Under the pieces are notes generated by a model, which was not told the DNA's origin, did no database searches, and saw only the letters and a program-made list of their open reading frames with translations. The position numbers and the translations under genes are program-made. Shown one piece after another: positions 3,574-27,789 of a DNA stretch of 64,000 nucleotides (position 1 is the stretch's first letter; each line of letters starts with the position of its first letter). The stretch is from Escherichia coli (GTDB taxonomy: Bacteria > Pseudomonadota > Gammaproteobacteria > Enterobacterales > Enterobacteriaceae), in NCBI RefSeq assembly GCF_048403405.1, contig NZ_CP183129.1. The stretch is one strand, 5' to 3'.

Positions 3574-5559
3574 ATGAAAACCGTTAGGGAGTCCACAACG
3601 TTGTACAACTTTCTCGGATCGCACAATCCATACTGGCGGTTAACGGAAAGCAGCGATGTTTTGCGCTTTTCTACCACCGAAACCACAGAACCTGAACGTA
3701 CGTTGCAGTTATCTGCCGAACAGGCTGCTCGCATCAGGGAAATGACAGTCATCACTTCCAGTCTGATGATGAGTCTGACCGTCGATGAAAGCGATCTTTC
3801 TGTGCATCTGGTAGGACGAAAAATCAATAAACGGGAATGGGCTGGCAACGCGTCGGCATGGCATGACACACCGGCGGTTGCTCGTGATTTATCACACGGG
3901 CTTTCCTTTGCTGAGCAGGTAGTTTCTGAAGCACATTCCGCAATAGTGATTCTCGACAGTCGGGGGAATATCCAGCGCTTCAATCGGTTATGTGAAGATT
4001 ACACAGGGTTGAAAGAACACGACGTCATTGGGCAAAGCGTGTTTAAACTGTTTATGAGCCGTCGTGAAGCTGCGGCATCCAGGCGCAATAACCGTGTATT
4101 TTTTCGAAGCGGCAATGCATATGAAGTCGAACTGTGGATACCAACACGTAAAGGCCAGCGGCTGTTTCTGTTTCGCAATAAATTTGTCCACAGCGGTAGT
4201 GGCAAAAACGAGATTTTTTTAATCTGTTCCGGCACCGACATTACCGAAGAGCGCCGCGCTCAGGAGCGACTGCGCATTCTGGCAAATACCGACAGTATCA
4301 CCGGACTGCCGAATCGTAACGCAATGCAGGAGTTAATCGATCACGCTATTAATCAGGCAGATAACAATAAAGTTGGGGTTGTGTATCTTGATTTGGATAA
4401 TTTTAAAAAGGTCAACGACGCCTATGGGCATTTGTTTGGTGACCAGCTATTACGCGACGTGTCATTGGCTATTTTAAGCTGTCTCGAACATGACCAGGTG
4501 TTGGCGCGTCCAGGTGGCGATGAGTTTCTGGTACTGGCATCCAACACCTCACAAAGCGCGCTGGAAGCAATGGCATCACGAATTTTGACCCGCTTACGGC
4601 TCCCCTTTCGCATTGGTTTAATTGAAGTTTATACCAGCTGTTCAGTAGGTATTGCACTCTCTCCCGAACATGGTTCAGACAGCACGGCTATTATTCGTCA
4701 CGCCGACACAGCAATGTACACAGCGAAGGAAGGCGGACGAGGACAATTTTGCGTTTTTACCCCAGAAATGAATCAACGGGTATTTGAATATCTCTGGCTG
4801 GATACCAACTTGCGTAAAGCACTGGAAAACGATCAGTTGGTTATTCACTATCAACCGAAAATCACCTGGCGTGGCGAAGTGCGCAGTCTGGAAGCACTAG
4901 TACGTTGGCAGTCACCTGAACGTGGGTTGATTCCACCGTTGGACTTCATTTCCTACGCCGAAGAGTCAGGGCTAATTGTGCCTTTAGGCCGTTGGGTGAT
5001 TCTCGATGTCGTACGCCAGGTGGCGAAGTGGCGGGATAAAGGTATTAACCTGCGAGTGGCGGTAAATATTTCTGCACGTCAGCTCGCCGATCAAACCATT
5101 TTCACCGCCCTGAAACAGGTTCTCCAGGAACTCAATTTTGAATACTGCCCTATAGATGTTGAACTGACAGAGAGTTGTCTGATTGAGAATGATGAACTGG
5201 CACTGTCTGTTATTCAACAATTTAGCCAACTAGGTGCGCAAGTGCATCTGGATGATTTTGGTACCGGCTACTCTTCACTTTCGCAACTGGCGCGCTTTCC
5301 GATCGATGCCATCAAACTTGACCAGGTTTTTGTTCGAGATATTCACAAACAACCTGTCTCGCAGTCACTGGTCCGGGCGATCGTCGCTGTGGCCCAGGCA
5401 TTGAATCTTCAGGTGATCGCCGAAGGTGTAGAGAGTGCAAAGGAAGATGCTTTTTTAACCAAGAACGGGATCAATGAGCGGCAAGGATTTTTGTTTGCCA
5501 AACCGATGCCCGCCGTCGCCTTCGAACGCTGGTATAAACGCTATCTGAAGCGCGCATAA
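3574..5559 (+). CDS. pdeR: c-di-GMP phosphodiesterase PdeR (YciR/Gmr), PAS-GGDEF-EAL
   Basis: 661-aa ORF with GGDEF-like and EAL regions; position between rnb and yciT. Confidence 0.9.
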   Translation: MKTVRESTTLYNFLGSHNPYWRLTESSDVLRFSTTETTEPERTLQLSAEQAARIREMTVITSSLMMSLTVDESDLSVHLVGRKINKREWAGNASAWHDTPAVARDLSHGLSFAEQVVSEAHSAIVILDSRGNIQRFNRLCEDYTGLKEHDVIGQSVFKLFMSRREAAASRRNNRVFFRSGNAYEVELWIPTRKGQRLFLFRNKFVHSGSGKNEIFLICSGTDITEERRAQERLRILANTDSITGLPNRNAMQELIDHAINQADNNKVGVVYLDLDNFKKVNDAYGHLFGDQLLRDVSLAILSCLEHDQVLARPGGDEFLVLASNTSQSALEAMASRILTRLRLPFRIGLIEVYTSCSVGIALSPEHGSDSTAIIRHADTAMYTAKEGGRGQFCVFTPEMNQRVFEYLWLDTNLRKALENDQLVIHYQPKITWRGEVRSLEALVRWQSPERGLIPPLDFISYAEESGLIVPLGRWVILDVVRQVAKWRDKGINLRVAVNISARQLADQTIFTALKQVLQELNFEYCPIDVELTESCLIENDELALSVIQQFSQLGAQVHLDDFGTGYSSLSQLARFPIDAIKLDQVFVRDIHKQPVSQSLVRAIVAVAQALNLQVIAEGVESAKEDAFLTKNGINERQGFLFAKPMPAVAFERWYKRYLKRA

Positions 5560-5705
5560 GTAGATGAATATATATACTTAGCGCTATATCCCGTCATTAT
5601 ATATCGTATTCCTGGATGATAATTAGCCGTTGCTGTTAAACACTTCTCTTTTAGCGGCAATTTTTGCATTATTCATTTTCCACTTTTACTATAAGGATGT
5701 CCTTG

Positions 5706-5879
5706 ATGTCTGAATTTGATGCCCAGCGCGTTGCCGAACGTATTGATATTGTGTTAGATATCCTTGTGGCAGGCGATTACCACTCTGCGATCCATAATCT
5801 CGAGATACTTAAAGCAGAACTCTTGCGCCAGGTTGCTGAATCTACGCCAGACATCCCGAAGGCACCGTGGGAGATTTAA
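5706..5879 (+). CDS. yciZ: small protein YciZ (UPF0509)
   Basis: 57-codon ORF from [18 protein letters not shown] inside listed ORF 5664..5879; conserved position. Confidence 0.7.
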
Positions 5880-5968
5880 CAATCGTGCCTTCAGGTTTTC
5901 CTATTTGAGGATGCCCGGCGCGTCAGTATTTTTTTATTTAGTATTATAACGTTATAAGAATTACAGCG

Positions 5969-6718
5969 ATGAATTCCCGACAACAAACTATTCTACAGAT
6001 GGTCATTGACCAGGGTCAGGTTAGCGTAACCGATCTGGCAAAAGCCACTGGAGTTTCTGAAGTTACCATTCGCCAGGATCTCAACACCCTCGAAAAACTG
6101 AGTTACCTCCGCCGTGCACATGGCTTTGCAGTTTCGCTTGATAGTGATGACGTCGAAACCCGTATGATGAGCAACTATACGCTGAAGCGTGAACTCGCCG
6201 AGTTTGCCGCGTCTCTGGTTCAACCGGGCGAAACCATCTTTATCGAAAATGGTAGCAGCAATGCCCTGCTCGCCCGGACTCTGGGCGAACAGAAGAAAAA
6301 TGTCACTATCATCACAGTCAGCAGCTACATTGCGCATTTGCTGAAAGACGCGCCTTGTGAAGTCATTTTGCTCGGTGGCGTGTACCAGAAAAAAAGCGAA
6401 AGTATGGTTGGCCCTTTGACACGCCAGTGCATCCAGCAGGTACATTTCAGCAAAGCATTTATTGGTATTGATGGCTGGCAACCTGAAACTGGATTCACCG
6501 GTCGCGATATGATGCGTACCGATGTGGTCAATGCCGTGCTGGAAAAAGAGTGCGAAGCGATAGTCCTGACTGACAGCTCGAAATTTGGTGCTGTACATTC
6601 ATACTCCATCGGTCCCGTTGAGCGATTCAATCGCGTGATTACCGATTCGAAAATACGCGCCAGCGATCTGATGCATCTTGAGCACAGTAAACTCACCGTT
6701 CACGTCGTTGACATTTAA
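5969..6718 (+). CDS. yciT: DeoR-family transcriptional regulator YciT
   Basis: 249-aa ORF with N-terminal HTH and DeoR C-terminal sugar-binding-like region. Confidence 0.9.
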
Positions 6719-6986
6719 CCATTTCCCTTCTCTACGGATGATTTGCAGTTTGGCAAATCATCCGCTCTAAGATGATTCCTGGTTGATAATTAAGACTATT
6801 TACCTGTTATTAACACTCTCAAGATATAAAATTATTATCAGCGATATAACAGGAAGTCATTATCACCTGCGTGATATAACCCTGCGCGCGAGCAGATTTC
6901 ACGGAATAATTTCACCAGGCTTATTCTTAGCTATTATAGTTATAGAGAGCTTACTTCCGTGAATCATAAATTCAGGAGAGAGTATT

Positions 6987-7205
6987 ATGTTTGTAACGAG
7001 CAAAAAAATGACCGCGGCTGTTCTGGCAATTACCCTGGCAATGTCTCTGAGTGCCTGTTCTAACTGGTCTAAACGGGACCGCAACACCGCAATCGGCGCG
7101 GGTGCAGGGGCATTAGGCGGTGCAGTACTGACCGATGGCAGTACGTTGGGTACATTAGGTGGTGCAGCTGTCGGTGGTGTTATTGGTCACCAGGTCGGTA
7201 AATAA
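6987..7205 (+). CDS. osmB: osmotically inducible lipoprotein OsmB
   Basis: 72-aa ORF, signal peptide ending LSAC lipobox, Gly-rich mature part. Confidence 0.9.
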   Translation: MFVTSKKMTAAVLAITLAMSLSACSNWSKRDRNTAIGAGAGALGGAVLTDGSTLGTLGGAAVGGVIGHQVGK

Positions 7206-7298
7206 TCGTAAATAAATGTCGATTATCGACTCGCAATTATAATACGCTTGATTCTGTTCAGTACGAAATAACTGAATAATACACACAGTAAAATATTC

Positions 7299-7329
7299 GA
7301 AAGCCACGGATATATCCGTGGCTTTTTAT
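7299..7329. terminator. bidirectional terminator between convergent osmB and yciH
   Basis: hairpin agccacgga-tata-tccgtggct followed by T run. Confidence 0.6.
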
Positions 7330-7330
7330 G

Positions 7331-7660
7331 TTAACCACCTGCGAGTTTTACCTTCATCCCTTTCGCTTCAAGTAGTGATTTTAATAAATCACGCTTATCG
7401 CCCTGGATTTCAATAACTCCATCTTTAACTGCTCCGCCGCAGCCGCATTTTTTCTTCAGTTCCGCTGCAAGTTTTGTCAGTTCGGCATCATCGAGATCGA
7501 CACCGGTAATCAGGCAAACGCCCTTACCTTTACGTCCACTGGTCTGACGCTGAATACGCACCACACCGTCGCCTTTAGGGCGTACAGGGGCCGCTTTGGG
7601 CTCATCAATACGTCCGGTTTCCGTTGAGTAGACCAGACGGCTGTTGGAATCACTCATCAT
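7331..7660 (-). CDS. yciH: SUI1/eIF1-like translation factor YciH
   Basis: 109-aa ORF; start overlaps pyrF stop (ATGA), operon with pyrF. Confidence 0.9.
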
Positions 7661-8394
7661 GCACTCCGCTGTAAAGAGGCGTTGATCGCTTTCAGCGTCT
7701 GCGCTGGATCTACCGATTGCGTTACCGGGCGACCAATCACCATATAATCAACACCAGCCGACAACGCCTGTTCTGGCGTCATAATGCGGCGCTGGTCACC
7801 AGCTTCACTCCCCTGCGGACGAATGCCCGGCGTAACCAGTTTGAACTCCTGACCGAATACCTGTTTAAAGCGCACAGCTTCCTGAGCAGAACACACCACA
7901 CCATCAAGGCCACATTTTTGCGTCAGTGCCGCCAGACGTTCTGCATAATCTGCAGGTGACAGTGTCATGCCAAGATCGACCAGGTCGCTGGCTTCCATGC
8001 TGGTCAACACTGTCACAGCAATCAAAAGCGGTGCATCTTTGCCAAACGGAACCAGTGCCTCACGCGCTGCGGTCATCATACGCGCCCCACCAGAGGCATG
8101 AACATTCACCATCCACACGCCTAAGTCAGCTGCAGCAGCGACAGCGTGCGCAGCAGTGTTAGGAATATCGTGGAATTTCAGGTCAAGAAAGATATCAAAA
8201 CCACGCTGTTGAAGTTCGCGCACAAACTGTGGCCCAAACAATGTAAACATCTCTTTGCCGACCTTCAGACGACAATCGCGTGGGTCGATCTTGTCGACAA
8301 AGGACAGCGCGTCATCACGATTATGATAATCAAGGGCAACAACCACAGGAGAATTCGTAACAGCGCGGGAAGAAGATGAAGCAGTTAACGTCAT
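7657..8394 (-). CDS. pyrF: orotidine-5'-phosphate decarboxylase
   Basis: ORF 7657..8454; PyrF sequence begins [23 protein letters not shown] so start placed at 8394. Confidence 0.9.
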
Positions 8395-8586
8395 GACCAG
8401 ACCTTCTTGATGATGGGCACCGGAAGTGGCGCGAAACAGGTAAACGGCGAGCATTCTACCCGTGGAAATAAAAAATTAACAGTTGCGATTTTTCCCCTGG
8501 CAGGCTTTTTCTGCGCCGTCGTTGCCGGAGCACAATGGAACATCAATAACTAGTATGTTGTAACTAAAGTCGGATTTTTTTAAAAA

Positions 8587-9756
8587 TTACAGGCCATCAA
8601 GACCGCGAATCGGTTTAATGGTTGACCAGGCCCGACAAGACGGACAATGCCAGTAGAGGGTGTATGCGGTAAAACCACATTTCTGGCAGCGATAACGAGG
8701 CTTACTACGCACCTTCTCGCCAACCATGTCACGCAGCACCATCAGACTCTCTTTGGCACGCCCTTCTTCCGCTTCATTTAAGTGGTAATCCATTAGCTTA
8801 TGGAACACACGCATGGTCGGATGACGCTGAAGCTGACGCGTAATATAGACCTGTGCGGCCTCACTACCGTCGCGCGCTTCGATAATATCCGCAAGCATCA
8901 ATTCAGCATCGGCACCGGTGTTCTCTTCCACCGCGCGCTGCAGGAATTCTGCCCATTCGGCAGTTTTACCCAACTGCTGATAGCAGGTTTGCAACATTTC
9001 CAGCGTTTCGCTGACCAGTTCTCTGTCCTGGGATATCACGCGTTGCAAACTTTCGACGGCTTTGGCGTATTCTCCTTTCGCCATAAACACGCGTCCCATC
9101 ATGATGGATACGCGGGCGCTGTTTTTATCTGCCGCAGCCCCTTTTTTTAGCAAGGTCATGGCACGATCGAGATCGTCGCTGGCCATATGCTGCAGGGCTA
9201 ACTCACAGTAGAAATGGGCAATTTCGACGCGCTGTTTATCTTTACCCAGCTTCACCAGGCGTTCGGCAACATCAATTGCTTTCTGCCACTCGCTGGTAGC
9301 CTGGTAGATTTGTAGCAACTGTTGCAGCGCGCCAATGCGGAAGTCAGTTTCATCGGTCAGCTGATTGAACATGTCTTCCGCGCGGTCGTATAACCCGGCG
9401 GCCATGTAATCACGCCCCAGTTGTTGAATCGCCAACAGACGCTGTTCATAGGTCAGCGAGGCGCTTTCCATTAGGGTCTGATGGATGCGAATAGCGCGAT
9501 CAACTTCGCCACGCGAACGGAACAGGTTTCCGAGCGTAAGGTGGGCTTCAACGGTACCCGTATCCTCTTTAAGCATATCGAGAAACAGGTCTACCGCTTT
9601 ATCCTGTTGATTACTAAGCAGAAAGTTAACCCCCGCTACGTAATCACGCGACAAGCGGTTGGCTTCATCTTGCTTGTTTTGTTGCGCACTTCTGCGGCCC
9701 ATATACCAGCCATAGGCAGCGGCTACAGGCAAAAGCAGAAACAACAACTCCAGCAT
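8587..9756 (-). CDS. lapB: LPS assembly protein LapB (YciM), TPR repeats plus C-terminal rubredoxin-like Cys motifs
   Basis: 389-aa ORF; N-terminal TM, TPR region, C-terminal CxxC...CxxC. Confidence 0.9.
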   Translation of the reverse strand: MLELLFLLLPVAAAYGWYMGRRSAQQNKQDEANRLSRDYVAGVNFLLSNQQDKAVDLFLDMLKEDTGTVEAHLTLGNLFRSRGEVDRAIRIHQTLMESASLTYEQRLLAIQQLGRDYMAAGLYDRAEDMFNQLTDETDFRIGALQQLLQIYQATSEWQKAIDVAERLVKLGKDKQRVEIAHFYCELALQHMASDDLDRAMTLLKKGAAADKNSARVSIMMGRVFMAKGEYAKAVESLQRVISQDRELVSETLEMLQTCYQQLGKTAEWAEFLQRAVEENTGADAELMLADIIEARDGSEAAQVYITRQLQRHPTMRVFHKLMDYHLNEAEEGRAKESLMVLRDMVGEKVRSKPRYRCQKCGFTAYTLYWHCPSCRAWSTIKPIRGLDGL

Positions 9757-19265: not shown

Positions 19266-19644
19266 ATTCACCTTACCTAATTTGATTCTTCCAGGAATGC
19301 GTCGCACGTTGATAAACCTTCCACTGGCAACGAGTTACCGATATGGACTCGCTCTCTGCGGATATCAACCCCTTGTCGTGACTCTGTTCACGAAAATTCA
19401 GGTGACTGAGTTAACAGGTCTTGGCCTACAGGCGCTATAGCACGACGGAATTTTGGTCGAATGTCAAGCAAATCTATTGCCAGATTGACGAAAGCGTCAC
19501 ACTGTACCTGATAAAATCCGATACGCAACTTTATTAGCATGCAAAATCCAAAGTTGCCAGTAAGGCGCTCTTGCCACCAGCGTGGTATATTTGTCTGCAA
19601 GCCATGCCTGGCGTAGACTAATGTCCTTGTTTAAGGAGTAAATA

Positions 19645-19896
19645 ATGAACAAAGAGACACAACCCATCGACCGCGAGACGCTGTTGAAAGAGGCCAACAA
19701 AATCATTCGTGAGCATGAGGATACGCTCGCAGGGATTGAAGCCACCGGCGTCACGCAGCGTAATGGCGTGCTGGTATTTACCGGCGACTACTTTTTAGAT
19801 GAACAAGGATTGCCAACAGCCAAAAGCACCGCGGTGTTTAATATGTTCAAACACCTGGCCCATGTGCTTTCAGAAAAATATCATCTGGTTGATTAA
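19645..19896 (+). CDS. yciN: small protein YciN
   Basis: 83-aa [33 protein letters not shown]; followed by hairpin terminator at 19903-19929. Confidence 0.85.
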
Positions 19897-19929
19897 ATAA
19901 ATATCCTCCGGCATAGCCGGAGGTTTTTC

Positions 19930-20600
19930 AAATGCGCCTATAAGGCTCTCTTACCAGCCGCGCCCTAACAGGCGCACACGATCTGACATTTGCATCCAAC
20001 TTCGTTACTTACGGCCCGTAAACGGGCTGCCCGGATAGGGAATCGATAACTGCTCTCCCATTTTATCCTCTTCAAGCTGGTGCTTTATGTAATCCTGTAT
20101 CTTCGCCGTGTTCTTACCCACCGTATCGACGTAGTACCCTCTGCACCAGAACTCCCTGTTCCTGTATTTGAATTTCAAATCACCAAACTGCTCGTAAAGC
20201 ATCAGACTGCTTTTCCCTTTCAGATATCCCATAAAGCCGGATACGCTCATTTTGGGCGGGATCTCCACAAGCATATGGATATGATCTGCACAGCATTCAG
20301 CTTCCAGAATCCGTACACTTTTCCACTCACACAGCTTTCTCAAAATACTGCCTATTGCTCTACGCTTCTCTCTGTAGAACACCTGTCTTCGGTATTTTGG
20401 CGCAAAAACTATGTGATATTTACAGTTCCATCGGGTGTGCGCTAAGCTCTTTTCGTTCCCCATTGGGACCCCCTTTTGATTTCTTGTTTGACACTTGCAG
20501 TTGCCAGACCGCAAGGTGTTTTAACAAATCAAAAGGGGTTTTAATAACTGGCTTAAAGCTGAAAGCTTTCCGGAACCCCCAGCCTAGCTGGGGGTTTTCT
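19930..20600 (-). mobile_element. IS200-family insertion sequence (IS200/IS605 family); boundaries approximate
   Basis: contains Y1 HUH transposase gene and, upstream of it, the palindrome aacccccagc-ctag-gctgggggtt (20572-20597) plus an RBS-sequestering stem-loop (20464-20530); inserted between yciN and sohB terminators. Confidence 0.7.
20005..20463 (-). CDS. tnpA: IS200 transposase TnpA (Y1 HUH)
   Basis: 152-aa product MGNEKSLAHTRWNCKYHIVFAPKYRR...HIHMLVEIPPK, near-identical to Salmonella IS200 TnpA as I recall it. Confidence 0.9.
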   Translation of the reverse strand: MGNEKSLAHTRWNCKYHIVFAPKYRRQVFYREKRRAIGSILRKLCEWKSVRILEAECCADHIHMLVEIPPKMSVSGFMGYLKGKSSLMLYEQFGDLKFKYRNREFWCRGYYVDTVGKNTAKIQDYIKHQLEEDKMGEQLSIPYPGSPFTGRK

Positions 20601-20605
20601 GTGCA

Positions 20606-20640
20606 CAAACAAAACGCGAGGTCTTAGCCTCGCGTTTGTC
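20606..20640 (-). terminator. rho-independent terminator of sohB
   Basis: hairpin aaacgcgagg-tctta-cctcgcgttt immediately 3' of sohB stop. Confidence 0.55.
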
Positions 20641-20642
20641 TT

Positions 20643-21692
20643 TTACATCAATGGTTTTTGCCCCCGCTGCCACCAGCGTAACAACAATCGATCGGCGCTC
20701 TCTGCCGCGCTGCCGGTGAATCGGTCAATGAGTCGTTTACGCTGCATATAGCGTACATTGACCACTTCACGGCCTTCCATCAGGCTAAGAATAACTTCAT
20801 CACTGGTGTTGATTTCATCAACCAGGCCTTTCTCTACCGCCTGTTGTCCGTACCAGTGTTCACCCGTTGCCACCTGATCAATATTCAGAGACGGACGCAT
20901 ACGCTTCACAAAATCTTTAAATAACTGATGCGTTTCGTTCAGCTCTTCGCGGAATTTCTCCCGCCCTTCTTCGGTGTTTTCACCCAGCAAAGTCAGCGTG
21001 CGCTTATACTGCCCGGCGGTGTGCAGTTCGATATCAATATCTTTGCTTTTCAGGAAGCGGTTAAAGTTGGGCATTTGTGCCACCACGCCAATGGAACCCA
21101 CAATAGCAAACGGTGCGGAAACAATTTTGTCCGCCACACAGGCCATCATGTAACCGCCACTGGCAGCAACTTTGTCTACCGTAACAGTTAAAGGAATGTT
21201 TTTATCACGCAGACGCTGCAGCTGCGAAGCCGCCAGCCCGTAACCATGCACCATGCCACCAGGGCTTTCCAGACGTAGCACAACCTGATCCTGCGGTTTG
21301 AATGCTGCGAGTACCGCCGTTATCTCTTCACGTAGCGAGTTCACTTCATGGGCGTCCATGCTGCCTTTAAAATCCAGCACCCAGACGCGAGGTTTACTGT
21401 CAGTTGCCACCTCGCCCAGTTTGGCTTTCGCTTTTGCTGCTTTCGCTTCTTGCTTGTGCTTTTTCTTCTGCGCTTTGTGCCACTGTTTTTGCTGATGTGA
21501 GTCCATCAGCGCCGCGGCCAGTTCTTCTTTCATCTCCTTATACTGTTCGCTGAGATTGTTGACCCGTAACTCGCCACGCTGGCGTTTATTACGTTGAGCA
21601 ACATTGACAATAATGGCGGCAATCGCCGCAATCGCTAGCACAACGGTAACGATTTTCGCCAAAAACAAACCATATTCAGACAACAATTCCAC
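20643..21692 (-). CDS. sohB: S49-family inner-membrane peptidase SohB
   Basis: 349-aa ORF, N-terminal TM, S49/SppA-like core. Confidence 0.9.
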   Translation of the reverse strand: MELLSEYGLFLAKIVTVVLAIAAIAAIIVNVAQRNKRQRGELRVNNLSEQYKEMKEELAAALMDSHQQKQWHKAQKKKHKQEAKAAKAKAKLGEVATDSKPRVWVLDFKGSMDAHEVNSLREEITAVLAAFKPQDQVVLRLESPGGMVHGYGLAASQLQRLRDKNIPLTVTVDKVAASGGYMMACVADKIVSAPFAIVGSIGVVAQMPNFNRFLKSKDIDIELHTAGQYKRTLTLLGENTEEGREKFREELNETHQLFKDFVKRMRPSLNIDQVATGEHWYGQQAVEKGLVDEINTSDEVILSLMEGREVVNVRYMQRKRLIDRFTGSAAESADRLLLRWWQRGQKPLM

Positions 21693-23308: not shown

Positions 23309-23617
23309 TCAAGCGGCAATAGCGAAATTCAGAATACGTGTAATCTCATTCAAATGTCCCGGATATGCTTCATGATTCTCAGCGTCAACATCTTCAATAA
23401 ATAATATCAGTTCAGTAATTAACGCATTAGCATCGTCATAATTTATCCCGGCTAACTCTGGCGAAGTTTCAGTACCATAGTTAATCGTCAGGTTGTTCAT
23501 AACTGTGAGGATATGGATAAAATATTTATGACAAACATTACATGTGGTTTTATTACCCAAAGTATTATACAGCATATCAAGTAATGCCAATATTCTACGG
23601 TTTTGCACATCGTTCAT
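23309..23617 (-). CDS. hypothetical small acidic protein (102 aa), second gene of AT-rich islet
   Basis: ORF in AT-rich DNA directly downstream of lipoprotein gene; no recognisable family. Confidence 0.5.
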   Translation of the reverse strand: MNDVQNRRILALLDMLYNTLGNKTTCNVCHKYFIHILTVMNNLTINYGTETSPELAGINYDDANALITELILFIEDVDAENHEAYPGHLNEITRILNFAIAA

Positions 23618-23627
23618 AAAAAGCCTC

Positions 23628-24629
23628 CTATAACATTATTCCGCTGGCAATAAGTAATTTTGCCAGCCCCTCAGACGCCTTTAACCCACTAATGACCTGT
23701 GCGCGTAATATTTCATTTAATCTTTTTTGTTCAGCTGCCGTGCGTGTTTTATTAACGTATAAGCTTTTTAGATAATCACCCTTATCTATAAAGGCATTTA
23801 AAGCCTCAATCGCAGGCATGGCAGGTGCCGATGCCTGTAGTCTGGTTTCATTCACATTGATTACTGAACTTAGAAACTCCTTCCTGTTTTTCAGAGTGTT
23901 AAACTCTGTATTCTTAGAGTTTTTAGATGCTGTATTATAATAAAACATATTATCATGCACATTCGCAAAGGTATAATTTTCAATCTTATTGCTTTTTGTA
24001 TAAATATCATTGCGCAAAACCGCCATGTTCTTTATAAGTCTTACCCAGTTTTCATCTGCCGTTTTGCCTATTTTTCCAGAATTGACTTTAATTATATATA
24101 ACTCATTGAAATAATTTACCAAATCTTTAACCGCTGCTGCAGATTGAGCTAAATCTTTGCTATGTGAAACACCAAGTAGTGTTTGTGCGTTGTTTGCGTG
24201 ATCCAGAGCCTGTTTAAGTAATGCCACTTGCTGACTTTCCGTAGTTGCCATATCCTTTGTCAGAAGTTCCACATAAGCGCTCATGCTATTAATGACTTCC
24301 ATTGAAGCCAGTAATTTTTCTTTCTCGAAAGGGACTAATTGTACTTGTTTTGTATTTGGCCCTGAACGCTGGCATAATTTTCCGCCATTCCCATCACCGC
24401 CTATATCAATGGTATAATCAGGTCGCAATGCACAATCCGGATTAGTCGCGTAGAAATTAACAAGGAAGTTTTCACGAGAAGCATAGTATTGTTTAAAGAA
24501 ACTTGCATTCGCCGCTACTGCTTTGTTACCCGCAGTAATAACAGTTTCAGCTTGTTCGTTTTTCAATGCTTCAGTTGCACAACCTGAAAGCATTAACAGC
24601 GATAGAAATATTCCACTATATCTAATCAT
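23628..24629 (-). CDS. hypothetical lipoprotein (333 aa), AT-rich islet
   Basis: signal peptide with lipobox LSGC (MIRYSGIFLSLLMLSGC), strong SD GAGGTGGG upstream, AT-rich codon usage. Confidence 0.7.
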   Translation of the reverse strand: MIRYSGIFLSLLMLSGCATEALKNEQAETVITAGNKAVAANASFFKQYYASRENFLVNFYATNPDCALRPDYTIDIGGDGNGGKLCQRSGPNTKQVQLVPFEKEKLLASMEVINSMSAYVELLTKDMATTESQQVALLKQALDHANNAQTLLGVSHSKDLAQSAAAVKDLVNYFNELYIIKVNSGKIGKTADENWVRLIKNMAVLRNDIYTKSNKIENYTFANVHDNMFYYNTASKNSKNTEFNTLKNRKEFLSSVINVNETRLQASAPAMPAIEALNAFIDKGDYLKSLYVNKTRTAAEQKRLNEILRAQVISGLKASEGLAKLLIASGIML

Positions 24630-25674: not shown

Positions 25675-25884
25675 AGAGCTTCCTTTTGGTGTCGCCTTCC
25701 CAGGCGTCTGATATGCTTTTGTGCAACAGTGAGTCAGAACTTACATCTGACTCACTGATAGTAAAGTCTGTTTGAACTCTTCAGGCCTTAAGTAAACGAC
25801 TCGACGTTTATCGGCCTGGCTTTGAGGCGCAACATACTACACTATCTTTATGGTTAAAGCTTGTTTCGATTAACATCAGCTTGA

Positions 25885-27789
25885 TTACCAGCCACCGCCG
25901 CCTCCGCCACCTGCACCGCCACCAGCACCACCACCGGAATAGCTACGCCCCAACAAACTGGTATAGGCCCCGCAACTCAGGTGCGTCTGTAATGAGAATA
26001 AAACGCCACTACGGGCAATTTCCGGGGCGCGAACAGCCGCTGTGAGTGATGGGGTGATACGTGCTGCCCATTCTCTGCCAAGGTTTGCCGAGACCGCCCA
26101 ACCTAACAACGCGTAATCCAGTTTCCGTGTTTCCCCTTTCCGCCGCCGCCCACTGTGTGTTGCTGCCTCTTTACGCGCAAGATAGTTAACGATAGCTTCA
26201 CCGTGGACATAACGTTGCTGCCCAGTTTGGGTAAACTTTGGCAGAAAAATATACCCCAAGCCAGTGAGATAACCGGTCAGGACAACAGCGCTAAAATAAC
26301 CCGCTGGCATATACCAGTAAAAGAATACATCTCCGACATTGATATAGAGAGAATAAAAGGCCACGCCTGAACAAATCAGCGGTAAAAACAAAGTGATGAT
26401 TACACGATTAACGCAAGGCTTGTCATCATCGCGGGCAAACACAAGCTCAAGGGAACAAAATAAAAAAGGAAGAAGCCAGCAGATCATAATAAACATATCG
26501 CCCACCAGACTCATTCCTGCCCAGCCTACGGGACTCAGGTTACCGTAGAGAATGACCGCTAATATCGCCATTCCCCCCCATTGCAAAAACGCATCAGGTC
26601 GGTAAAACGAAGACTTTTTACGCGGCAGATAAAATTTCTGCATCCGTAAAAATGCCCTGCGTAAGACTCTGTTGCGTCTCCCCGTAAGAACGACCTTATC
26701 GCCTTTACGAAATAACGCTTCCAGTAATAACTGCTCTGCGGGCAGTAATACCGCATTATTTCTGGTCGCGCCTTCATTAACACGAATCAGGATTTGCTGG
26801 TTCTTATCATACTGATCTTCCAGATGAATTTTGCCTTTCACAATCAGATTTACGATATCGGCACAAAAACCTTTATCGTCGTAAACCAGCTTCGCATCGA
26901 GACGTAACATGCCGGGCGTGTAATCTGGCGGAATGACATCGGTTTCAATCACATCTACCGGCGTAAATTGCGGCCTGCGCTTCCAGAGATATAACCATCC
27001 ACAAACCAGGAATAGACACGGAAACCAAATTAACAACGATGACGTGGAGGGTAAAAGAAGATGGCTGAAAATATTCGTCGTTTGTGGAGCCGGGGCATTG
27101 CTAAGTAAAGCGTGAGGCCAGCGGTAGAGTACCGTGAAATCTTCACGATAAAACGGATCGCGGGATTCAATTCTTCCGTCCTCAAGGATGCGGCCATTTC
27201 GATATGTGTCGCCCTCTTCTCCAGTAAAGAGATCGATTTCGCTAAATGGATTACCCGCGATATCAGGGAACTTGAGTGAAAATCGGGTCTTATAGATTTC
27301 AAACGGCCAGTGGTTACCGGTCACGTTCCAGATTAACAGATCTGAATCTCCCTCACGCAGGAAAGCATTTTTAACCTGATAATGAATTTGATAATGATAG
27401 TCGCCTTGAGGCAAGAAACGTTGTTTATCGCCCACGACGATACTCATTAAACCGATATGCCAGTCAAGATGCCAGGGTTCAGGAACACCATCACGGGTGA
27501 CGCCAACAATATGATAGTTCAGCAGTGCAGCGTCCCCATCAGGCTGCATCCAGAGTCGTGGTAAATCACGATAAAATCCGTGCTTAATCTGCTGATTTCG
27601 CGCCTGAAAATGAATATTTTCTTTGATGTCGAGCCCCCCATCCGGTTGCAGAGTGGCTTCAACATCAAAGAGCGAGATCCCTTCTTCATAAAAAGGGATC
27701 TCCGTGTTTTTCGGATAACTCAACGAAGAGAAAAAAGCCCAACTATCAACAGCAAAATGCAGCGATATATCCCTGCCATAGTCTTCCAT
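25885..27789 (-). CDS. yciQ: DUF2207-family membrane protein YciQ with C-terminal poly-Gly tail
   Basis: 634-aa ORF, several TM segments, ends GGGAGGGAGGGGGGGW. Confidence 0.8.
   Translation of the reverse strand: MEDYGRDISLHFAVDSWAFFSSLSYPKNTEIPFYEEGISLFDVEATLQPDGGLDIKENIHFQARNQQIKHGFYRDLPRLWMQPDGDAALLNYHIVGVTRDGVPEPWHLDWHIGLMSIVVGDKQRFLPQGDYHYQIHYQVKNAFLREGDSDLLIWNVTGNHWPFEIYKTRFSLKFPDIAGNPFSEIDLFTGEEGDTYRNGRILEDGRIESRDPFYREDFTVLYRWPHALLSNAPAPQTTNIFSHLLLPSTSSLLIWFPCLFLVCGWLYLWKRRPQFTPVDVIETDVIPPDYTPGMLRLDAKLVYDDKGFCADIVNLIVKGKIHLEDQYDKNQQILIRVNEGATRNNAVLLPAEQLLLEALFRKGDKVVLTGRRNRVLRRAFLRMQKFYLPRKKSSFYRPDAFLQWGGMAILAVILYGNLSPVGWAGMSLVGDMFIMICWLLPFLFCSLELVFARDDDKPCVNRVIITLFLPLICSGVAFYSLYINVGDVFFYWYMPAGYFSAVVLTGYLTGLGYIFLPKFTQTGQQRYVHGEAIVNYLARKEAATHSGRRRKGETRKLDYALLGWAVSANLGREWAARITPSLTAAVRAPEIARSGVLFSLQTHLSCGAYTSLLGRSYSGGGAGGGAGGGGGGGW

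What the first reader, a model, noticed from the sequence alone, without database searches (positions are those of the whole stretch)
19930..20640. IS200-family element inserted beside the sohB terminator hairpin
A complete IS200-type unit (152-aa Y1 transposase plus upstream palindrome and RBS-sequestering stem-loop) lies between convergent yciN and sohB, with its hairpin end within about 10 bp of the sohB terminator. IS200/IS605 elements favour hairpin/REP-like targets and are typically very quiescent; useful as a strain marker.
Basis: partly seen in the sequence, partly recalled or inferred. Interest (0 to 1): 0.35.

Follow-up and report, generated by a model that had tools for sequence, protein, structure and literature searches.

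The report
Ordinary IS200 insertion at a terminator

Summary
The window is E. coli, and a complete IS200C element lies between the convergent genes yciN and sohB.

- **What is there:** a 152-aa Y1/HUH transposase, the left-end hairpin, the stem-loop that hides the ribosome-binding site, and the STnc490/art200 region.
- **Coordinates are wrong.** The element is 711 bp, at 19896-20606 on the minus strand. Deleting that interval gives a 130/130 match to empty sites in four E. coli genomes.
- **Hairpin at 19905-19923:** this is the element's own right-end hairpin, not a yciN terminator.
- **Hairpin at 20612-20637:** this is the native terminator that yciN and sohB share in empty sites. It lies outside the element.
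- **Frequency:** the site is filled in 118 of 5,426 complete E. coli genomes and empty in 5,303. It is filled on at least two different flank haplotypes, so it is not a clean single-origin marker.
- **Target choice:** across 124 independent insertions in several taxa, 96% sit directly after a stable hairpin plus T-tract (TTTNTT^), against 11% of control TTTNTT sites. This target resembles the element's own right end (hairpin plus TTTATT^).

The element is ordinary and of low interest. The terminator targeting is a tidy side result, and part of it has already been reported.

The parts
19896..20606 (-). Complete IS200C element, 711 bp. The left end is at the high coordinate. The boundary can slide by up to 2 nt because of identical T/A bases at both junctions.
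   Evidence: Removing 19896-20606 gives a 130/130 match to empty sites in KE55 and ST2747, confirmed over 1330 nt. Other copies match from 19895/19896 to about 20608-20617. The ahpF-uspG filled/empty pair gives the same 711-bp unit, GTGCAC...ATATTTATT. The tandem-copy junction reads ATATTTATT|GTGCC.
19896..19904 (-). Right-end terminal nonamer ATATTTATT. The inferred right-end cleavage site is TTTATT^.
   Evidence: Eight of the nine positions are invariant in 52 of 52 independent copies and the seventh in 51 of 52. The sequence becomes variable immediately after.
19905..19923 (-). Right-end subterminal hairpin CCTCCGGC-TAT-GCCGGAGG. It is preceded by GAAAAA on the element's strand. On the + strand it reads as hairpin plus TTTTT, 8 nt after the yciN stop codon.
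   Evidence: Present in every copy examined. DNA fold dG -10 kcal/mol. Scored as terminator-like on the + strand. RNA fold dG -16.5. It shares 14 of 19 bases with the left-end hairpin, and both stem differences are compensatory (read directly from the sequence).
20005..20463 (-). tnpA, a 152-aa Y1/HUH transposase with HIH at residues 61-63 and catalytic Tyr125.
   Evidence: Pfam PF01797 E=3.8e-38. Sequence relatives with solved structures: 2EC2 (4e-23), IS608 TnpA 2A6M (4e-19), ISDra2 TnpA 2XM3. Motif positions. RefSeq protein WP_000526135.1. Y125F is catalytically dead in PMC4513863.
20468..20475 (-). Shine-Dalgarno sequence AAGGGGGU of tnpA.
   Evidence: Read from the sequence. It matches the sequence given in PMC4513863 and lies inside the 3' arm of the stem-loop.
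20470..20538 (-). [quoted passage not shown] It corresponds to published IS200 nt 69-138 if nt 1 is 20607.
   Evidence: RNA fold dG -40 kcal/mol, z=-4.4. Rfam STnc490 structure. Published description in PMC4513863.
20455..20544 (+). [quoted passage not shown]
   Evidence: Placed from the published description (PMC4513863). The + strand folds into a stem-loop followed by UUUU (dG -35.4, z=-5.0). Expression was not tested, and the Rfam match itself is on the tnpA-sense strand.
20574..20596 (-). Left-end subterminal perfect palindrome AACCCCCAGC-TAG-GCTGGGGGTT. In IS200 this is the published bidirectional terminator (nt 12-34) and the inferred TnpA binding hairpin.
   Evidence: Unique in the window, with 0 expected by chance. 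DNA fold. Rfam model positions 1-23. Published role in PMC4513863.
20597..20606 (-). Left-end tip GTGCACAGAA. The A-rich stretch GAAAA next to the hairpin is the inferred guide sequence.
   Evidence: Identical in 6 of 6 independent E. coli copies. It differs by lineage in other taxa. The guide role is inferred by analogy with IS608 and was not tested.
20607..20612 (-). Target T-tract TTGTTT^ of the host terminator. This is flank, not element. Position 20609 is A here but G in the filled sites of CFT073 and strain 7/2.
   Evidence: Position-specific counts over 124 flanks give TTTNTT^. Allele comparison.
20612..20637 (.). Native bidirectional intrinsic terminator shared by sohB and yciN in empty sites. 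It lies outside the element and still serves sohB.
   Evidence: In K-12 it is the only hairpin in the 35-bp yciN-sohB spacer. It scores as terminator-like on both strands.

Best explanation
A single, intact, autonomous IS200-group insertion sequence (isoform IS200C, IS200/IS605 family) occupies 19896-20606 on the minus strand.

**Shown here**
- It encodes only TnpA, a Y1/HUH single-strand DNA transposase.
- It has no terminal inverted repeats. Instead it has two related subterminal hairpins, one at each end.
- It made no target duplication.
- It sits immediately 3' of the T-tract of the sohB terminator, co-oriented with sohB.
- Its active (top) strand lies on the G-rich strand, which is the lagging-strand template.

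**Inferred from the IS608/ISDra2 paradigm**
- TnpA binds the two hairpins on the top strand.
- A-rich guide bases 5' of each hairpin (GAAAA) pair with the T-rich cleavage sites. These are the target TTTNTT^ at the left flank and TTTATT^ at the right end.
- The element leaves as a single-strand circle and pastes in 3' of a T-tract that follows a hairpin, a target that mimics its own right end.

**Known for IS200, and conserved in sequence and structure here**
- Expression is held down by the left-end terminator hairpin, a weak promoter, the stem-loop that hides the Shine-Dalgarno sequence, and the antisense RNA art200.

**Consequence at this locus (inferred)**
- sohB keeps its terminator.
- yciN is cut off from it by 711 bp and now meets the right-end hairpin plus TTTTT 8 nt after its stop codon. 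This probably acts as a replacement terminator.
For: - **Identity:** 100% match to RefSeq loci annotated as IS200C tnpA between yciN and sohB. Pfam Y1_Tnp 3.8e-38. Rfam STnc490 146 bits. HUH and Y125 present. Related to solved IS200-family and IS608/ISDra2 TnpA structures.
- **Ends and absence of duplication:** exact 130/130 empty site after deleting 19896-20606. Over 1330 nt, the only differences from KE55 are 7 SNPs at least 270 nt away. K-12 has a 35-bp spacer with one hairpin. The ahpF-uspG filled/empty pair gives the same unit. The right end is conserved through ATATTTATT in 52 copies, and the tandem junction reads ATATTTATT|GTG.
- **Structures:**
- **Target rule:** in 6 of 6 E. coli sites and 124 unique sites overall, the left end follows hairpin plus T-tract. 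The 40-nt upstream MFE is <= -10 in 96%, against 18% of random positions and 11% of control TTTNTT sites. Mann-Whitney p=2e-69.
- **Strand:** the window's + strand has negative GC skew throughout. K-12 has sohB on the + strand at 1.329 Mb.
- **Mechanism and regulation literature:** PMC4513863, PMC5027513, PMC2806898, PMC6006769.
Against: - No activity, expression or termination was measured. The mechanism is transferred from IS608/ISDra2.
- The guide-to-cleavage-site pairing is inferred only from A-rich and T-rich complementarity.
- The exact cleavage position cannot be fixed to better than 2 nt from sequence alone.
- The flank at -13 differs between this copy (T) and most empty sites (C), so only 4 genomes give a perfect empty site.
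- The 124-site sample is dominated by Y. pestis IS1541, and part of it comes from MAG contig ends.
- Survival bias, in which insertions after terminators are harmless, could add to the enrichment.
Confidence: 0.95

Rival explanations
1. The element has the ends the first reader gave (19930-20640). On that reading the hairpin at 19905-19923 is the host's yciN terminator, and the hairpin at 20612-20637 lies within the reader's span for the element.
For: Both hairpins look like terminators in the pattern scan. The one at 19905 sits 8 nt after the yciN stop codon.
Against: Empty sites contain only the 20612-20637 hairpin and lack 19905-19923. Every IS200 copy at unrelated loci carries the 19905-19923 hairpin and ATATTTATT. 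None carries the 20612-20637 sequence.
Confidence: 0.01
2. The copy is an immobile, domesticated relic. It would be kept as a source of regulatory RNAs (5'tnpA and art200) and would not behave as a transposon.
For: The literature describes IS200 as almost never transposing and as an ancestral genome component with sRNA functions in Salmonella (PMC12594629; PMC4513863). The STnc490 region is fully conserved here.
Against: The site is polymorphic, filled in 118 genomes and empty in 5,303 of 5,426. The same TnpA protein (WP_000526135.1) sits at different loci in other strains. Strains identical across this locus carry 11-20 IS200-like places. The ORF, the catalytic residues and both ends are intact. 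An sRNA role in E. coli is not excluded and is compatible with mobility.
Confidence: 0.1
3. The association with terminators comes only from selection. On this view insertion is random at T-rich sites, and only copies that land harmlessly after terminators, shielded from read-through, persist.
For: Sites downstream of terminators are neutral. A preprint reads upstream terminators as limiting transposase expression (10.1101/2025.07.22.666184).
Against: The junction sits in a fixed register, hairpin-TTTNTT^GTG, at 96% of sites, against 11% of TTTNTT control sites. Tandem copies use the previous copy's own right end (hairpin plus TTTATT) as the target. Neutral intergenic positions that are not terminators are almost never used. 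Selection probably contributes but does not explain nucleotide-level precision.
Confidence: 0.15
4. The gene is a REP-associated tyrosine transposase (RAYT/TnpA_REP) or an IS605/IS1341-type element with TnpB, not an IS200-group element.
For: They share the Y1/HUH fold family (PMC6006769).
Against: The element is 711 bp with a single ORF and no tnpB. It is not flanked by inverted REP copies; its ends are the IS200 left-end and right-end hairpins. It is multi-copy with identical ends at unrelated loci.
Confidence: 0.01

Closest known systems
IS200 of Salmonella enterica / IS200C of E. coli (IS200 group, IS200/IS605 family)
   Same: Same architecture and near-identical sequence. It has the 152-aa TnpA with Y125 and the left-end hairpin at nt 12-34. 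It also has the Shine-Dalgarno-sequestering stem-loop at nt 69-138 and the STnc490/art200 region. RefSeq names the protein an IS200C family transposase.
   Different: It is 711 bp here, against 707 bp quoted for the Salmonella copy. No other difference was found. This is a member, not a variant.
IS1541 of Yersinia pestis / Y. pseudotuberculosis
   Same: Identical 23-nt left-end hairpin, identical right-end hairpin and ATATTTATT terminus, and the same hairpin-plus-T-tract target.
   Different: The left-end tip is GTGCCCAGAA rather than GTGCACAGAA. The spacing from left-end to right-end hairpin is 691 rather than 692 nt. It has a much higher copy number, and tandem copies occur.
IS608 (Helicobacter pylori) and ISDra2 (Deinococcus radiodurans)
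   Same: Homologous TnpA (2A6M 4e-19, 2XM3 2e-16). Both have subterminal hairpins instead of inverted repeats, make no target duplication, and insert 3' of a short specific sequence. Orientation here is consistent with the lagging-strand template.
   Different: Those elements also carry tnpB and target TTAC or TTGAT without a known need for a neighbouring hairpin. Here there is no tnpB, and the target is a T-tract that follows a stable hairpin.

Membership tests
IS200/IS605 family, IS200 group | Encodes a Y1 HUH transposase (TnpA) with the HUH motif and a catalytic tyrosine | tested here: met
   Pfam PF01797 E=3.8e-38 over profile positions 2-121 of 121. HIH at residues 61-63 and Y125. Aligns to solved TnpA structures 2EC2, 2A6M and 2XM3.
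IS200/IS605 family, IS200 group | No terminal inverted repeats; subterminal hairpins at both ends | tested here: met
   Left-end hairpin 20574-20596 and right-end hairpin 19905-19923. The two share 14 of 19 bases with compensatory stem changes. The tips GTGCAC... and ...ATATTTATT are not inverted repeats.
IS200/IS605 family, IS200 group | Insertion without target-site duplication, 3' of a preferred short sequence | tested here: met
   Exact empty site after removing 711 bp. The ahpF-uspG pair agrees. The flank consensus TTTNTT^ is always on the left-end side.
IS200/IS605 family, IS200 group | tnpA alone with no tnpB; length about 0.7 kb | tested here: met
   711 bp with one ORF that has a family match.
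IS200/IS605 family, IS200 group | Left-end terminator hairpin, Shine-Dalgarno-sequestering 5'UTR stem-loop and the antisense art200/STnc490 locus | tested here: met
   Rfam RF01405, 146 bits, full length 1-124. Folds. Coordinates match the published nt 12-34 and 69-138. Expression and function were not tested.
IS200/IS605 family, IS200 group | Strand-specific single-strand excision and integration by TnpA | not testable with these tools
   Only the orientation is consistent: the top strand lies on the G-rich strand, which is the lagging-strand template.
IS200C isoform (ISfinder name) | Near-identity to the ISfinder IS200C reference sequence | not testable with these tools
   ISfinder is not available here. 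As a proxy, NCBI's PGAP pipeline names the identical protein WP_000526135.1 'IS200/IS605-like element IS200C family transposase'.
RAYT / TnpA_REP | Usually a single-copy gene flanked by REP sequences in inverted orientation, without IS200-type left and right ends | tested here: not met
   Multi-copy with IS200 left and right ends at unrelated loci. The flanks are a host terminator and the yciN stop codon.
Intrinsic (Rho-independent) terminator, for 20612-20637 | GC-rich hairpin followed by a T-tract at the 3' end of a gene | tested here: met
   Pattern match on both strands. It is the sole hairpin between the stop codons of yciN and sohB in K-12. Termination activity is not testable here.

The most novel reading that the evidence does not exclude
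IS200-group elements (IS200, IS1541 and relatives in Vibrio, Desulfovibrionaceae and Bacillota) may target intrinsic transcription terminators specifically. On this reading TnpA integrates 3' of a T-tract (TTTNTT^) only when a stable hairpin precedes it, because that structure mimics the element's own right end (hairpin plus TTTATT^). The inserted element then supplies a replacement terminator on the opposite strand through its right-end hairpin plus T5. Such a rule would explain the element's harmlessness, its low expression, and repeated hits at one nucleotide, as seen here on two yciN-sohB haplotypes. The probability given is for the rule being both true as a mechanism and not yet explicitly described. 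A 2025-26 preprint already reports the aggregate enrichment of terminators upstream of IS200/IS605 elements.
Probability: 0.25. Interest if true: 0.45.

Novelty: already known. Interest (0 to 1): 0.15.

Why it matters
The element itself adds nothing new. It is a routinely annotated IS200C copy found in about 2% of complete E. coli genomes.

Three practical points follow:
1. The correct ends are 19896-20606. Hairpins next to IS200 copies are easily mis-assigned between host and element.
2. The site is filled on two different flank haplotypes, and one of those also exists empty. Presence or absence here is therefore not a safe single-origin lineage marker.
3. The very strong preference for hairpin plus T-tract explains where such copies land. 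If it is mechanistic, it would be a natural example of structure-dependent target choice by a Y1 transposase.

Tried and rejected
- **Three-way alignment.** Aligning the two window flanks with K-12 was not clean enough to set the ends. I replaced it with direct string comparison and a synthetic empty-site search.
- **Strict terminator rule.** A perfect-stem rule called only 76 of 124 flanks and under-counted imperfect stems. I replaced it with the 40-nt MFE and two controls.
- **Rfam Ysr202 at 19870-19928.** It scores 27.9 bits against a gathering score of 315 and aligns only to the model's terminal hairpin. I rejected it as a generic terminator match.
- **Promoter scan.** It found no sigma-70-like site in 19600-20900. 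That is uninformative, and it agrees with the published statement that tnpA promoter elements are undefined.
- **Literature.** The He et al. 2015 review and Beuzon et al. 1999 are not held. I therefore could not confirm whether terminator targeting by IS200/IS1541 has been stated explicitly. Only the aggregate observation in a preprint was found.
- **Other ORFs.** The + strand ORFs antisense to tnpA (121 aa and 90 aa) and the upstream-extended TTG start at 20514 were treated as spurious. The annotated 152-aa ORF is the one that matches the family.
- **Other element types.** RAYT and IS605-type readings were rejected on anatomy.

Full report
**Organism and context.** The window is an Escherichia coli chromosome. 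Region 19600-20950 matches six complete genomes at 100% (TUM14771, GN02461, 4621, MS 69-1, TUM1226 and OX030728). In all six, RefSeq annotates yciN, then a tnpA described as 'IS200/IS605-like element IS200C family transposase', then sohB. The same six genomes are 100% identical over window 4000-9000. The surroundings are ordinary core genome: topA, yciN, sohB, yciK, cobO, rluB and the trp operon.

**Checking the observation.**
- The minus-strand ORF 20005-20463 encodes 152 aa and matches Pfam Y1_Tnp (PF01797) at E=3.8e-38 over the whole profile.
- It carries the HUH motif (HIH, residues 61-63) and Tyr125. Y125F is the catalytically dead mutant used for IS200 in PMC4513863.
- It aligns to solved IS200-family transposases: 2EC2 at 4e-23, IS608 TnpA 2A6M at 4e-19, and ISDra2 TnpA 2XM3 at 2e-16.
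- Upstream of the gene, Rfam STnc490 (RF01405) matches 20473-20596 full-length at 146 bits, against a gathering score of 56.
- The perfect palindrome AACCCCCAGC-TAG-GCTGGGGGTT lies at 20574-20596. It is unique in the window, with none expected by chance.
- The 5'UTR RNA folds into a long stem-loop at 20470-20538. Its 3' arm contains the Shine-Dalgarno sequence AAGGGGGU (dG -40 kcal/mol, z=-4.4).
- If nt 1 is placed at 20607, these positions reproduce the published IS200 coordinates: terminator hairpin nt 12-34 and stem-loop nt 69-138.

The described features are therefore real and not due to chance.

**Where the element really starts and stops.** In K-12 the stop codons of sohB and yciN are 35 bp apart. 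The only hairpin between them is CAAAACGCGAGGTCTTAGCCTCGCGTTTG, so it is a terminator shared by both genes. Other IS200C copies elsewhere in E. coli match the window only from 19895/19896 to about 20608-20617.

Six independent E. coli insertions share GTGCACAGAA followed by the left-end hairpin on one side. These lie after sohB, icd, ahpF, a lom-like gene, gnd, and at one locus with no annotated neighbouring gene. On the other side five of them share the hairpin CCTCCGGC-TAT-GCCGGAGG followed by ATATTTATT; the sixth has ATATTTTTT. Unrelated sequence lies beyond both ends.

The ahpF-uspG pair shows this cleanly. K-12 reads ggcggcTTTTTTatggca. The filled strain reads ggcggcTTTTTT[GTGCAC...ATATTTATT]atggca, a 711-bp insert with no duplication. 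Across 52 copies the right end is conserved through ATATTTATT (one copy differs at one position) and variable straight after. In tandem IS1541 dimers the junction reads ATATTTATT|GTGCC.

Applying the same unit to the window gives 19896-20606, which is 711 bp. Deleting it predicts a 130-nt empty site. That site is found at 130/130 in four genomes (ST2747 in three assemblies, and KE55), and 5,303 genomes hold an empty site overall. Over 1,330 nt, KE55 differs from the window minus the element by only 7 SNPs, all at least 270 nt from the junction. The boundary can slide by up to 2 nt because T/A bases repeat at both junctions.

It also wrongly includes the host terminator (20612-20637).

**How it most likely works.** The following anatomy is shown here:
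- A single tnpA gene.
- No terminal inverted repeats.
- Two related subterminal hairpins. The left-end and right-end stem-loops share 14 of 19 bases, and both stem differences are compensatory: C-G becomes T-A, and A-T becomes G-C.
- The sequence GAAAA directly 5' of the stem at each end.
- No target duplication.

The mechanism is transferred from the characterised relatives IS608 and ISDra2 (PMC5027513; PMC2806898; PMC6006769). TnpA binds the hairpins on the top strand and cuts at sites recognised through pairing with bases 5' of the hairpins. It releases a single-strand circle, then integrates it 3' of a short specific sequence in single-stranded DNA, preferentially on the lagging-strand template.

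The T-rich left flank (TTTNTT^) and right end (TTTATT^) fit pairing with the A-rich GAAAA. That pairing is inference only.

The orientation fits the lagging-strand preference. The window's + strand has negative GC skew throughout, and sohB is on the + strand of K-12 at 1.329 Mb. The element's top strand is therefore the G-rich strand, which is the lagging-strand template. The assignment of the K-12 replichores comes from my own knowledge.

Regulation is known from Salmonella and E. coli work (PMC4513863). It involves a weak promoter, a left-end bidirectional terminator, a Shine-Dalgarno-sequestering stem-loop, the antisense RNA art200, and Hfq. All the sequence elements are conserved here. The promoter scan found nothing, in line with the published statement that the promoter is undefined.

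**Target choice.** I collected every locus with the exact 23-nt left-end hairpin from one genome per species and added the E. coli copies. This gave 124 unique left flanks from E. coli, Y. pestis (IS1541), Vibrio ruber, Mailhella/Desulfovibrio, a Bacillota MAG, Brenneria, Dickeya and others.

Positions -16 to -11 relative to the left-end hairpin read T(101) T(119) T(103) N T(122) T(111) out of 124. They are preceded by G/C-rich sequence.

| Site class | 40-nt upstream MFE <= -10 kcal/mol | Mean MFE |
|---|---|---|
| Left flanks of the element (124) | 96% | -18.3 |
| Random positions in the same loci | 18% | about -7 |
| Control TTTNTT sites in the same loci (1,500 sampled) | 11% | -5.4 |

The Mann-Whitney test against the TTTNTT controls gives p=2e-69.

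The hairpins differ in sequence at every site, so they are host DNA and not part of the element. In five of the six E. coli cases the hairpin lies at the 3' end of a co-oriented gene: sohB, icd, ahpF, a lom-like gene and gnd.

The preferred target is therefore an intrinsic terminator, which resembles the element's own right end. [quoted passage not shown] I could not obtain the family review to check whether the rule has been stated explicitly for IS200 or IS1541.

**Local consequences (inferred).** sohB keeps its hairpin and a T-tract: TTTTGTTT, against TTTTGCTTT in most empty sites. yciN is separated from the shared terminator by the element. It now meets the right-end hairpin followed by TTTTT 8 nt after its stop codon. 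This scores as terminator-like on the + strand and folds at -16.5 kcal/mol as RNA.

**Population picture.** The site is filled in 118 of 5,426 complete genomes and empty in 5,303. Strains identical to the window at this locus carry 11-20 IS200-like places per chromosome. The same TnpA protein accession sits at different loci in other strains. The element has therefore moved in these lineages, despite its reputation for being quiescent.

The filled site exists on at least two flank haplotypes.
- The window type has T/A/T/C/A at 19884, 20609, 20655, 20661 and 20681. Strain 7/2 has C/G/C/A/G at these five positions; CFT073 matches it at 19884, 20609 and 20655.
- Two of these differences lie only 12 nt and 3 nt from the element's ends.
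- The 711-bp element is identical between the window and strain 7/2: 0 differences, against 12 in 1,240 flanking nt.
- The window-type haplotype also exists empty, in KE55 and ST2747.

Independent insertion at the same nucleotide is the simplest reading. Precise excision, or homogenisation of copies by gene conversion, is not excluded.

**Comparison and verdict.** This is a member of the IS200 group of the IS200/IS605 family, isoform IS200C by RefSeq naming. Every defining feature that could be tested was met, and only the biochemical activity and the ISfinder reference comparison could not be tested. It is not a RAYT and not an IS605- or IS1341-type element.

The element is already known, so novelty and interest are low. 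The one finding with some wider value is the precise terminator-mimic target rule, which has probably been at least partly noted by others.

Noticed in passing
window 23309-24629 (-): Two adjacent ORFs (333 aa at 23628-24629 and 102 aa at 23309-23617) lie between cobO/btuR and rluB. They are annotated 'hypothetical protein' in the identical genome TUM14771 and have no Pfam or PADLOC match. They look like a small strain-variable islet of unknown function.
   Followed up: partly
loci L013-L132: The exact 23-nt IS200 left-end hairpin occurs in very distant taxa: Oxalobacter, Mailhella/Desulfovibrio, Bacillota, Peptococcaceae, Saccharibacteria and Elusimicrobiaceae MAGs, Vibrio ruber and Y. pestis. 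Most hits are at contig ends. The roughly 10-nt tip between the junction and the hairpin is lineage-specific (GTGCACAGAA, GTGCCCAGAA, GTATAGAGAA, GTGAAACGAA, GGTTAAAAGAA). This suggests wide horizontal spread, or in some MAGs contamination.
   Followed up: partly
L079 2661-3393 and L081 12605-13337 (Yersinia pestis NCTC5923): Head-to-tail tandem IS1541 copies have left-end hairpins 710 nt apart and the junction ...ATATTTATT|GTGCCCAG. One copy's right end has apparently served as the target for the next, or the junction is a retained circle junction.
   Followed up: partly
window 19884, 20609, 20655, 20661, 20681; loci L133, L134, L135: The yciN-sohB site is filled on two different flank haplotypes, and the window's haplotype also exists empty (KE55, ST2747). 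This points to recurrent insertion at one nucleotide, or to precise excision.
   Followed up: partly
window 20473-20596: The Rfam STnc490 model matches the tnpA-sense strand and includes the left-end hairpin. The published STnc490/art200 RNA is antisense to the tnpA 5'UTR. The Rfam model orientation may not correspond to art200.
   Followed up: no
L136 26748-27246 (yciF) and 36222-38116 (yciQ); about window 36561-37059 and 25691-27585: yciF and yciQ are annotated as frameshifted pseudogenes in the identical genome TUM14771.
   Followed up: no
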